Shown here: positions 38,501 to 39,249 of the stretch, one piece after another
Layout of the letters: every line of letters begins with the position of its first letter
Position numbering within the stretch: position 1 is the stretch's first letter
DNA from: the human T2T-CHM13v2.0 reference genome, Homo sapiens
Length of the DNA stretch: 64,000 nt
Reading direction: 5' to 3' (one strand)
Assembly (NCBI RefSeq): GCF_009914755.1
Contig: NC_060934.1
Position numbers and translations under genes: made by a program
The notes under the pieces: model-generated
Database searches by the model: none
What the model was told of the DNA's origin: nothing
What the model saw: only the letters and a program-made list of their open reading frames with translations

Positions 38501-39249
38501 GATGCCACCATCTGCAGGTGGCCGCCTCCATGCTGCTCTCGTATATAATTTGGGCATGGTGGGGCATGGGTGTTTAGTAGGGGTTGGGGGAAGCAAGTAG
38601 AGAGTTCAGACTCTTAAATAAGTTGTTTGCCAGAGCAGGCTTAGATCTGGGCACTGTGAAGTAAGCGACCCACCCTGGGGGGGCGCCACTGTAATTGTCC
38701 TCGGACCACTGGGCGTGCCACCTCTGTGGGACATCCCTTAGGTGACCTCAGCTTGGGTGTGAGCATTAGGTAACTCTCTCCCTTGGCATCTGTGCCCTCT
38801 ATTCACAGATAACTCTCTCCCCTGTTTCTAGGAGAAAAAAAAAGTGCGTTCGCTACATACAAGGTGAAGGCAGCTGCCTCAGCCCACCCTCTTCAGATGG
38901 AAGCTTACTAGATTCGCCTCCCCCCTCCCCGAACCTGCTAGGCTCCCCTCCCCGAGACGCCAAGTCACAGACTGAGCAGACCCAGCCTCTGTCGCTGTCC
39001 CTGAAGCCCGACCCCCTGGCCCACCTGTCCATGATGCCTCCGCCACCCGCCCTCCTGCTCGCTGAGGCCACCCACAAGGCCTCCGCCCTCTGTCCCAACG
39101 GGGCCCTGGACCTGCCCCCAGCCGCTTTGCAGCCTGCCGCCCCCTCCTCATCAATTGCACAGCCGTCGACTTCTTCCTTACATTCCCACAGCTCCCTGGC
39201 CGGGACCCAGCCCCAGCCGCTGTCGCTCGTCACCAAGTCTTTAGAATAG
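14462..39249 (+). CDS. TCF7L2: TCF7L2 (TCF-4) spliced coding region, exons 6-17; 5' exons incl. beta-catenin-binding domain lie upstream of the window
   Basis: Twelve GT-AG flanked exons with consistent phases translate to the known TCF7L2 protein from [12 protein letters not shown] to [10 protein letters not shown]. Confidence 0.99.
15273..15567 (-). mobile_element. Alu (AluS) with small internal deletion in the left arm
   Basis: acagagtcttgctctgtcatccaggctgg...gagccaccacacccagcc. Confidence 0.95.
17201..17303 (+). CDS. TCF7L2: TCF7L2 exon 7 (103 nt; alternative donor after 17291 removes LVPQ)
   Basis: ttccctcag|GA ATC CCA...; [31 protein letters not shown](LVPQ); donors TG|gttagt (17292) and CA|gtaagg (17304) are 12 nt apart. 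Confidence 0.98.
17367..17422. repeat. (TG)n microsatellite
   Basis: Interrupted TG run ~64 nt downstream of exon 7. Confidence 0.95.
19285..19371 (+). CDS. TCF7L2: TCF7L2 exon 8 (87 nt)
   Basis: cttctttgtag|G CAA GGT...TCC AG|gtgagt; [28 protein letters not shown]. Confidence 0.98.
19813..20157. mobile_element. MER33-like hAT-Charlie DNA transposon
   Basis: cactgtccaatagaaatata...gccacatttcaaatattcaatagccacacgtggctggtg matches the MER33 consensus as I recall it. Confidence 0.8.
24257..24397 (+). CDS. TCF7L2: TCF7L2 exon 9 (141 nt with SFLSS; 126 nt from the proximal acceptor at 24272)
   Basis: Acceptors acacag|CTTT (24257) and ttctag|GTTC (24272) 15 nt apart; (SFLSS)[42 protein letters not shown]; donor TC|gtaagt; includes SUMO consensus VKQE at 24351-24362. 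Confidence 0.98.
24999..25158 (+). CDS. TCF7L2: TCF7L2 exon 10 (160 nt), HMG box N-terminal part
   Basis: atctccag|A AAG CAT...AGG|gtaggt; [53 protein letters not shown]. Confidence 0.99.
25607..25714 (+). CDS. TCF7L2: TCF7L2 exon 11 (108 nt), HMG box C-terminal part
   Basis: cctccag|TGG CAT...TAT|gtaggt; [36 protein letters not shown]. Confidence 0.99.
26860..27000 (-). mobile_element. Old MaLR LTR fragment (MLT1J/K-like)
   Basis: ggcctggaagtgtcatgggtcactt...cattggccagagctagtcatgtgacccaacctaactgcagg. Confidence 0.6.
27732..27865. mobile_element. MER91-like palindromic hAT MITE
   Basis: gtgcactgcacaactctag...tgtgaatggtgccccctggagttgtgcag internal palindrome. Confidence 0.75.
29386..29685 (-). 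mobile_element. Alu (AluSc-like) with TSD ctc(g/a)agtttctttct
   Basis: ccaggatggtctcgatctcttgaccttgtgatc diagnostic; duplicated flank at 29371 and 29686. Confidence 0.95.
30045..30280 (+). mobile_element. MIR
   Basis: Core gatgtgtgaccctggcaaagttacctaac...cagttttctcctctgtgaaactgga. Confidence 0.75.
30376..30689 (-). mobile_element. Alu (AluS) with TSD cactcagcag
   Basis: acagagttttgctcttgttgcccaggctgg...cagccactgctcccagcc. Confidence 0.95.
31293..31341 (+). CDS. TCF7L2: TCF7L2 exon 12 (49 nt), basic tail/NLS
   Basis: catctag|GGA AAG...AAT G|gtaagt; [16 protein letters not shown]. Confidence 0.98.
31939..31989 (+). CDS. TCF7L2: TCF7L2 cassette exon 13 (51 nt, frame-preserving)
   Basis: tttttcag|AA CAC...ACA G|gtgcta; [17 protein letters not shown]. 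Confidence 0.95.
33198..33270 (+). CDS. TCF7L2: TCF7L2 exon 14 (73 nt), C-clamp CRARF variant
   Basis: cattcag|AC CTG...TGC AG|gtgtgt; [24 protein letters not shown]. Confidence 0.97.
33897..33969 (+). CDS. TCF7L2: TCF7L2 exon 15 (73 nt), C-clamp CRALF variant
   Basis: gctaacag|AT GCA...TGC AG|gtatat; [24 protein letters not shown]; if joined after exon 14 it reads [13 protein letters not shown] (TGA 33937-33939). Confidence 0.97.
34857..34881 (+). CDS. TCF7L2: TCF7L2 exon 16 (25-nt cassette; NAGNAG acceptor aagcag)
   Basis: aagcag|TCTTTGAATTTGGAATATTACAATG|gtaggt; after exon 14/15 gives ...PCSL* (TGA 34861-34863); after exon 12/13 gives VFEFGILQW in frame with the long tail. Confidence 0.88.
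38832..39249 (+). CDS. TCF7L2: TCF7L2 exon 17 coding part (E-tail; alternative M-tail frame ends TAG 38909-38911)
   Basis: tttctag|[36 protein letters not shown]...[11 protein letters not shown] frame [26 protein letters not shown]; CtBP motifs PLSLS 38986-39000 and PLSLV 39217-39231. Confidence 0.98.
38835..38843 (+). repeat. TCF7L2: Coding (A)9 mononucleotide run, known frameshift target in MSI-high tumours
   Basis: gag AAAAAAAAA gtgc at the start of exon 17; intact 9 A here. Confidence 0.93.

What the first reader, a model, noticed from the sequence alone, without database searches (positions are those of the whole stretch)
38771..38831. Duplicated 3' splice site before exon 17 predicts TCF7-like C and D tails (WCGPCR*, DNSLPCF*)
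Seen: taactctctccc occurs twice (38771, 38810), each followed by an AG. The upstream one, attcacag| (38808), lies 23 nt before the canonical acceptor. Using it after exon 12/13 (phase 1) gives G|AT AAC TCT CTC CCC TGT TTC TAG = DNSLPCF*. After exon 14/15 (phase 2) it gives AG|A TAA = ...WCGPCR*. From memory, paralog TCF7 (TCF-1) has tails ending ...STTDNSLHYS* (D) and ...WCGPCR* (C). Inference: an ancestral alternative acceptor kept since the TCF/LEF duplications. It would make NMD-immune TCF7L2 isoforms (stop in last exon) with an incomplete or absent C-clamp and no CtBP motifs, outside the usual E/M/S classification.
Basis: partly seen in the sequence, partly recalled or inferred. Interest (0 to 1): 0.8.

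Follow-up and report, generated by a model that had tools for sequence, protein, structure and literature searches.

The report
Conserved second acceptor before TCF7L2 last exon
Just upstream of the last exon of the Wnt-pathway gene TCF7L2 lies a second, well-formed splice acceptor that matches, almost base for base, the one its sister gene TCF7 uses to make short protein tails; whether TCF7L2 itself uses it could not be tested here.

Summary
TAACTCTCTCCC occurs exactly at 38771 and 38810. A cag| acceptor ends at 38808, 23 nt before the annotated acceptor (exon start 38832). In-silico splicing into 38809 gives ...ETNDNSLPCF*...WCGPCR* and ...WCKPCR*, with all stops in the last exon.

New here: I found human TCF7 in the window's own genome. 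It has the same two acceptors 23 nt apart, and joining its exons reproduces its B, C, D and E tails. The 37 nt before the canonical acceptor are 31/37 identical between TCF7L2 and TCF7. Six other homologous acceptors of the same gene pair give 10-17/37. Pairs involving LEF1 or TCF7L1 give 12-15/37. The upstream acceptor is therefore ancient and under constraint in TCF7L2.

Not shown: that TCF7L2 uses it. None of the 17 RefSeq transcripts in the supplied gene table starts its last exon at 38809. Mouse cloning studies did not see it. None of 195 retrieved vertebrate proteins has a TCF7L2 tail of this kind. Weise 2010 says an exon-17 alternative acceptor was reported for human cells, but that source is not held.

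By their C-clamp content the predicted tails would fall into the existing S and M classes. Interest is moderate to low.

The parts
38771..38782 (+). First copy of TAACTCTCTCCC. It is a candidate branch point (TAAC, A at 38773, 35 nt before the G of the upstream AG at 38808) plus the start of the pyrimidine tract for the upstream acceptor.
   Evidence: exact match. There is no AG between 38774 and 38806 (read). It is not conserved in TCF7 (3/23 at -60..-38). The branch-point role is inferred, not tested.
38795..38808 (+). Conserved 14 nt, ccctctattcacag: pyrimidine tract and AG of the upstream (first) acceptor.
   Evidence: 12/14 identical to TCF7 ccctctgtttacag. Pyrimidines are 13/17 at -20..-4 and the site ends in cag. 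The 13 annotated acceptors of the window range from 9 to 15 of 17.
38809..38831 (+). The 23-nt alternative 5' extension of the last exon, ATAACTCTCTCCCCTGTTTCTAG. It also holds the second 12-mer copy (38810-38821) and the pyrimidine tract of the canonical acceptor.
   Evidence: 19/23 identical to TCF7 ATAACTCTCTTCACTATTCCTAG, with the same length.
38810..38812 (+). TAA stop read after a phase-2 donor (AG|A TAA). It ends the C-like tails ...WCGPCR* and ...WCKPCR*.
   Evidence: The same ATAA is present in TCF7.
38829..38831 (+). TAG stop read after a phase-1 donor. It ends the D-like tail DNSLPCF*. Its AG is also the canonical acceptor.
   Evidence: TCF7 has the same ctag|.
38832..40955 (+). Annotated last exon (exon 17 in the 17-exon numbering). 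The E-tail coding part runs to 39249.
   Evidence: Supplied gene table; translation.
31293..31341 (+). NLS exon. Its donor at 31341 is phase 1.
31939..31989 (+). Optional 51-nt exon. Its donor at 31989 is phase 1.
33198..33270 (+). CRARF half of the C-clamp. Its donor at 33270 is phase 2.
33897..33969 (+). CRALF half of the C-clamp (alternative exon). Its donor at 33969 is phase 2.

Best explanation
Position 38807-38808 is a real, sequence-competent alternative 3' splice site. It is the orthologous counterpart of the 'first acceptor' of the TCF7 last exon, inherited from the gene that existed before TCF7 and TCF7L2 separated, and kept under purifying selection in TCF7L2.

Mechanism (inferred): if a branch point upstream of 38795 is used, for example the first TAAC at 38771-38774, the first AG downstream is 38807-8 and the exon gains 23 nt. 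If a branch point at TTCAC (38802-38806) or ATAAC (38809-38813) is used, the upstream AG is too close or already passed, and the stronger tract tctctcccctgtttct leads to the canonical AG.

The 23 nt act as a terminator cassette. They stop translation at TAA after the C-clamp exons, giving a C-clamp that lacks its fourth cysteine and has no CtBP motifs. They stop it at TAG after the NLS exon or the 51-nt exon, giving no C-clamp at all.

Shown: the anatomy, the translations, and the homology and constraint. Inferred: that TCF7L2 uses the site, probably as a minor or context-restricted choice.
For: Anatomy and translations.

TCF7 has the same arrangement, and its four known tails are reproduced by joining exon XI or XII to the first or second acceptor. 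Torres-Aguila 2022 describes exactly this for TCF7 (PMC9303524, section 3.3).

Constraint: the 37 nt before the canonical acceptor are 31/37 identical between TCF7L2 and TCF7. This is a higher fraction than in the first 60 coding nt of the exon (44/60). Identity drops to 3/23 just upstream. Six control acceptor pairs of the same two genes give 10-17/37. The five other paralogue pairings at this acceptor give 12-15/37. A blastn of the region gives one 91-nt ungapped match at 81%.

The element is kept only in the two paralogues that keep the CRARF exon; TCF7L1 and LEF1 lack both (PMC9303524).

The candidate acceptor is as pyrimidine-rich (13/17, cag) as annotated acceptors of the gene (9-15/17) and richer than the TCF7 first acceptor (12/17).

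The gene has a precedent for this design: the annotated tandem acceptors 24257 and 24272, cacag|CTTTCTGTCTTCTAG| (gene table).

Against: No transcript evidence could be examined.

The supplied RefSeq table (17 transcripts) lists alternative exon forms, but none starts at 38809.

Weise 2010 found no exon-17 alternative acceptor in mouse tissues and suggests the human reports may reflect aberrant splicing in tumour cells.

A 2025 mouse-heart cloning study (53 transcripts, 32 isoforms per its abstract) does not mention it in the passages I saw (PMC12166992).

Prokunina-Olsson 2009 has 0 occurrences of 'acceptor' or 'splice site' (PMC2748888).

Torres-Aguila 2022 counts 14 C-terminal TCF7L2 isoforms. 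That is exactly the number of distinct tails the canonical acceptor alone gives. They attribute the C and D tails to a TCF7-specific gain.

Of 195 vertebrate and invertebrate TCF proteins retrieved, 0 have a TCF7L2 tail ending ...PCR or containing DNS in the last 12 residues. One frog TCF7 ends ...WCGPCR. This is weak evidence, because clustering at 90% identity would hide such isoforms.

In the D frame the last three codons all differ non-synonymously between TCF7L2 and TCF7 (PCF versus HYS), so the D tail beyond DNSL is not conserved as protein.
Confidence: 0.55

Rival explanations
1. The conserved 37-nt block is only a cis-element for the canonical acceptor: its branch point (TTCAC or ATAAC), its pyrimidine tract, and perhaps a binding site for a pyrimidine-tract regulator on CUCUCU. 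The upstream AG is bypassed and never gives stable TCF7L2 mRNA.
For: The block contains plausible branch points 19-26 nt before the canonical AG, and the canonical tract (read). There is no annotated or reported use in RefSeq or in mouse (gene table). The D-frame residues after DNSL are not conserved. The idea that CUCUCU is a PTB-type site is recalled, not tested.
Against: Six other acceptors of the same gene pair need branch points and tracts too, yet show only 10-17/37 identity. LEF1 and TCF7L1 splice the homologous exon without this block. The conservation includes the AG itself and the 14 nt in front of it (12/14). That is where an acceptor's own tract lies, and in TCF7 the same AG is a used acceptor.
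Confidence: 0.28
2. It is a cryptic site used only aberrantly, for example in tumour cell lines, with no selected function in TCF7L2. On this view the similarity to TCF7 reflects slow decay plus constraint from the overlapping canonical tract.
For: Weise 2010 raises this reading for the human exon-16 and exon-17 alternative acceptors.
Against: 31/37 identity after a split that predates the jawed vertebrates is not slow decay. The flanking -60..-38 stretch is at 3/23, and intronic controls are at background.
Confidence: 0.12
3. Chance: a low-complexity CT-rich repeat and an AG that happens to lie 23 nt upstream.
For: The window has 11 local 12-mer pairs that are not simple repeats, most of them low-complexity. 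LEF1 also has an AG at -23 with no sequence similarity.
Against: The paralogue identity is 31/37 against 10-17/37. The spacing is identical, and both stop codons are conserved.
Confidence: 0.03

Closest known systems
TCF7 (TCF-1) last-exon tandem acceptors that give the C and D tails (van de Wetering 1996, known to me only as cited; Torres-Aguila 2022, PMC9303524, section 3.3 read)
   Same: Two AGs 23 nt apart. cag|ATAACTCTCT is identical. TAA terminates after the CRARF exon (...WCGPCR*). The TAG of the second acceptor terminates after the NLS exon (DNSL...*). Tested.
   Different: For TCF7 the use of the first acceptor is documented and annotated. For TCF7L2 no use could be shown here. The last three D-tail residues differ (PCF versus HYS). 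TCF7L2 has an extra upstream copy of the 12-mer and two alternative C-clamp exons, so it has two C-like tails.
TCF7L2 S and M isoform classes (Weise 2010, PMC2847248, passages)
   Same: The C-like tail has an incomplete C-clamp (three of four cysteines) and no CtBP motifs, like the S forms ...[19 protein letters not shown] and ...WCGPCSL. The D-like tail has no C-clamp, like the M forms.
   Different: These tails are made by choice of acceptor, not by cassette-exon combination. The D-like tail lacks the 26-residue M tail, which is conserved in the TCF7 B tail and the LEF1 B-like tail.
TCF7L2 tandem acceptors 24257 and 24272 (SFLSS / SxxSS motif)
   Same: The same gene and the same design: cacag|, then a pyrimidine-rich coding stretch that doubles as the tract of the next acceptor, then tag| (gene table).
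   Different: That stretch is 15 nt and in frame, so it adds five residues. The 23-nt stretch shifts the frame and terminates translation.
Zebrafish tcf7l2 long, medium and short C-terminal variants (Young 2019, PMC6908431, passages)
   Same: Developmentally regulated loss of the complete C-clamp and CtBP motifs through splicing just before the last exon.
   Different: The passages describe two forms of a cassette ('exon 15') lying between the C-clamp exon and a common last exon. That corresponds to the human 34857-34881 exon region, not to the last-exon acceptor. It is therefore not evidence for the 38809 site.

Membership tests
TCF7-type last-exon tandem acceptor (generates C and D tails) | A second AG acceptor upstream of the E/B acceptor of the last exon, at the same distance | tested here: met
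   23 nt in both genes.
TCF7-type last-exon tandem acceptor (generates C and D tails) | Sequence homology of the acceptor and the inserted stretch | tested here: met
   31/37 identical, against 10-17/37 in six control acceptors and 12-15/37 in the other paralogue pairs.
TCF7-type last-exon tandem acceptor (generates C and D tails) | In-frame stops for both donor phases within the insert | tested here: met
   TAA at 38810-12 and TAG at 38829-31. The same holds in TCF7.
TCF7-type last-exon tandem acceptor (generates C and D tails) | Transcripts that actually use the first acceptor | not testable with these tools
   No RNA data are held. RefSeq lists none (gene table). Weise 2010 reports none in mouse and cites human reports that I could not read.
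TCF7-type last-exon tandem acceptor (generates C and D tails) | Conservation of the site in TCF7L2 orthologues | not testable with these tools
   No vertebrate genome other than the window's own is held.
TCF4 S class (incomplete C-clamp) | A CRARF or CRALF part is present, while the fourth cysteine, the RKKKC part and the CtBP motifs are absent | tested here: met
   In silico only...[20 protein letters not shown] and ...[20 protein letters not shown].
TCF4 M class (no C-clamp) | No C-clamp element after the NLS | tested here: met
   In silico only...ETNDNSLPCF* and ...[14 protein letters not shown].
NMD-insensitive mRNA by the exon-junction rule | The stop codon lies in the last exon | tested here: met
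   One search places all four stops in the last exon. The rule itself is established knowledge, recalled. Any effect of the longer 3' UTR was not tested.

The most novel reading that the evidence does not exclude
The tandem last-exon acceptor is a feature from before the genome duplications of the vertebrate TCF gene. It was retained only by the two paralogues that kept the C-clamp exon, because it is a regulated switch. One acceptor choice, whatever the upstream exon combination, removes the fourth C-clamp cysteine and both CtBP motifs. TCF7L2 would then make C and D tails in particular cell types. The published model that C and D splicing arose only in TCF7 would need revising, as would the E/M/S catalogue.
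Probability: 0.2. Interest if true: 0.55.

Novelty: new member of a known kind. Interest (0 to 1): 0.35.

Why it matters
TCF7L2 is the main nuclear effector of Wnt signalling in the gut and a leading type-2-diabetes locus. Its C-terminal tails decide which promoters it can activate.

A conserved acceptor that ends the protein right after the third C-clamp cysteine, or right after the NLS, would be a one-step way to switch off helper-site binding and CtBP binding.

The comparison with TCF7 also bears on how the family's isoform repertoire evolved. The substrate for C and D tails predates the TCF7/TCF7L2 split, whereas Torres-Aguila 2022 treats it as a TCF7 gain.

The practical weight is limited. 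The predicted proteins resemble the S and M isoforms that are already known, and no use of the site is shown.

Tried and rejected
(1) Literature. No held paper prints DNSLPCF, NSLPCF or DNSLHYS; the 9 WCGPCR hits concern other topics such as thioredoxins and plant or microbial proteomics, judging from the listing. No held paper describes the position of a human exon-17 alternative acceptor.

(2) Duval 2000 and van de Wetering 1996 are not held. Whether the reported human exon-17 acceptor is the -23 site therefore stays open.

Their Appendix S1 may list isoform sequences that bear on this question.

(5) Zebrafish long, medium and short variants looked like a direct precedent at first. I rejected this after reading the primer and exon description.

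(6) LEF1 has an AG at -23 but only background similarity to TCF7L2 and TCF7 (14/37 and 12/37) and, read by eye, no early stop. I take this as chance.

(7) Protein database. A 23-residue query was too short. The HMG-exon query listed 120 of 6743 hits. A query on the C-terminal 44 residues of a bird TCF7L2 gave 96 hits. No TCF7L2 C-like or D-like tail was found among the 195 proteins. This is uninformative, because 90% clustering merges such isoforms with S and M forms.

(8) No splice-site scoring program or table was available to me. I used only pyrimidine counts against the gene's own acceptors.

Full report
**What is there**

The window sequence reads ...ggTAACTCTCTCCCttggcatctgtgccctctattcacag|ATAACTCTCTCCCCTGTTTCTAG|GAGAAAAAAAAAGTGCG.... 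The 12-mer TAACTCTCTCCC occurs exactly twice, at 38771 and 38810. With one mismatch allowed there are 4 sites against 0.44 expected, and 0 of 100 shuffles reach 4. The upstream AG is at 38807-38808 and the annotated acceptor AG at 38830-38831. Use of the upstream AG would therefore lengthen the last exon by 23 nt (38809-38831).

As a local repeat the 12-mer pair is only mildly unusual. A first-order Markov model expects 0.38 such pairs per window. The real window has 11 that are not simple repeats, most of them low-complexity.

**Translations**

I joined the constitutive exons and all 16 combinations of the four optional exons (31939-31989, 33198-33270, 33897-33969, 34857-34881) to either acceptor.

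- Into 38809, the phase-1 donors 31341 and 31989 give ...ETNDNSLPCF* and ...[14 protein letters not shown].
- The phase-2 donors 33270 and 33969 give ...WCGPCR* and ...WCKPCR*.
- In all four cases the stop lies in the last exon.
- With the canonical acceptor alone, the 16 combinations give 14 distinct tails.

The 23 nt behave as a terminator for both open phases: TAA at 38810-12 and TAG at 38829-31. The TAG is also the canonical acceptor.

**Paralogues**

The window's own genome could be searched. The HMG exon finds four loci, on contigs 10 (the window's own TCF7L2), 5 (TCF7), 4 (LEF1) and 2 (TCF7L1). The CRARF exon finds only the window's two copies and contig 5.

TCF7 reads ...ccctctgtttacag|ATAACTCTCTTCACTATTCCTAG|GAGGAAAAAGAAATGC. 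This is again two acceptors 23 nt apart. Joining TCF7 exon XI or XII to the first or second acceptor reproduces ...ESTTDNSLHYS* (D)...DWCGPCR* (C), the B tail and the E tail. Torres-Aguila 2022 describes this for TCF7 (PMC9303524, section 3.3 read).

**Constraint**

Between TCF7L2 and TCF7, ungapped identity around this acceptor is as follows:

- the 37 nt before the canonical acceptor: 31/37;
- the 14 nt in front of the first AG: 12/14;
- the 23-nt insert: 19/23, with the first ten nt identical;
- the next 23 nt upstream (-60..-38): 3/23;
- the first 60 exon nt: 44/60.

Six other homologous acceptors of the same two genes (TCF7L2 exons starting at 17201, 24272, 24999, 25607, 31293 and 33198) give 10-17/37, or at best 13-17/37 with shifts of up to 6 nt. 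At the last-exon acceptor the five other paralogue pairings give 12-15/37.

Torres-Aguila 2022 derives TCF7 and LEF1 from a common TCF7-LEF1 ancestor and notes clear similarities between TCF7L1 and TCF7L2. If TCF7L2 lies outside the TCF7-LEF1 pair, as that model implies, a block shared only by TCF7 and TCF7L2 was present before those duplications and was lost in the two genes that also lost the CRARF exon. That is an inference, but a parsimonious one. It runs against the same paper's statement that C and D splicing was acquired in the TCF7 lineage.

**Which part is conserved**

The conserved unit is the upstream AG with its own 14-nt tract, plus the 23-nt insert. It is not the 'duplication': the first 12-mer copy has no counterpart in TCF7.

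The first copy could still serve as branch point and tract for the upstream AG. Its TAAC has an A at 38773, 35 nt before the G of the AG (38808), and there is no AG between them. The canonical AG can be served by TTCAC (A at 38805) or ATAAC (A at 38812). This branch-point reasoning rests on the recalled first-AG-after-branch-point rule and was not tested.

The candidate acceptor has 13/17 pyrimidines at -20..-4 and ends in cag. The 13 annotated acceptors of the window range from 9 to 15 of 17. The canonical acceptor has 15/17 and the TCF7 first acceptor 12/17. The gene already has an annotated tandem acceptor of the same design at 24257 and 24272.

**Is it used?**

This could not be tested, because no RNA data are held. 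The indirect evidence is mostly negative.

- The supplied RefSeq table (17 transcripts) lists alternative exon forms, but none starts at 38809.
[quoted passage not shown] It suggests they may be aberrant events of tumour cells. The cited sources (Duval 2000 and others) are not held, so I cannot say whether that site is the -23 one.
- A 2025 mouse-heart cloning study (PMC12166992, passages) and Prokunina-Olsson 2009 (PMC2748888, abstract and passages) do not mention it.
- Torres-Aguila's count of 14 TCF7L2 C-termini equals the canonical-only count.
[quoted passage not shown] Only one ends ...WCGPCR, a frog TCF7. None is a TCF7L2 C-like or D-like form. The collection is clustered at 90% identity, which would merge such forms with S and M forms, so this is weak evidence.
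- The zebrafish long, medium and short variants are a different event, a cassette between the C-clamp exon and the last exon (PMC6908431, passages).

**Function if used**

The C-like tail keeps three of the four C-clamp cysteines and loses the RKKKC part and both CtBP motifs. The D-like tail has no C-clamp.

[quoted passage not shown] Applied to these tails, that makes them S-type and M-type, not a new class. S and M forms are described as weak activators at C-clamp-dependent promoters (Hrckulak 2016, PMC4963812, section 3.4).

The stops lie in the last exon, so the exon-junction rule for NMD does not apply. The same is true of the known S forms, whose stops lie 18-30 nt before the last junction.

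**Verdict**

That point appears to be new relative to the papers I could search. Use by TCF7L2 is unproven and may be minor.

The best reading is a conserved, competent alternative acceptor of the TCF7 type (confidence 0.55). The main rival is a conserved cis-element of the canonical acceptor whose AG is bypassed (0.28).

Interest is moderate to low, because the gene is heavily studied, the kind of event is known in its paralogue, and the predicted proteins resemble known classes.

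Noticed in passing
38835-38843: A run of nine A lies three bases into the last exon (GAGAAAAAAAAAG). Weise 2010 and the 2025 mouse-heart paper describe one-base changes in this run that shift E, M and S frames in tumours with microsatellite instability. The 23-nt insert lies just upstream of it.
   Followed up: partly
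38829-38834: The canonical acceptor reads TAG|GAG, a NAGNAG-like pair. A shift of 3 nt would drop one residue. I saw no evidence for or against its use.
   Followed up: no
L019:7889-7914 (minus strand; LEF1 last-exon acceptor): LEF1 also has an AG exactly 23 nt upstream of its last-exon acceptor (aatag|CATTTCATTTGTTCCTTCTTGAG|GTGG). It shows no sequence similarity to TCF7 or TCF7L2, and reading the sequence by eye, no early stop in phase 1.
   Followed up: partly
L002:1440-1481 (TCF7L1 last-exon acceptor): In the four-way alignment, TCF7L1's last exon carries a 24-column insertion near the acceptor relative to the other three paralogues (GALASKSKKPCVQY in place of RRKKKCVRY). The conserved block is absent.
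   Followed up: partly
24257-24272: The annotated tandem acceptors cacag|CTTTCTGTCTTCTAG|GTTCC (the SFLSS motif) have the same design as the 38809/38832 pair. TCF7 has a single acceptor at the homologous exon.
   Followed up: partly
33270-33282: Several database TCF7L2 and TCF7 models end ...WCGPCRCV. That is what reading through the donor CAG|gtgtgta of the CRARF exon gives, so they look like intron-retention models or partial models.
   Followed up: no
6503-6643: A tandem repeat with a 50-nt period shows up as several 13-24-nt exact pairs at distance 50.
   Followed up: no
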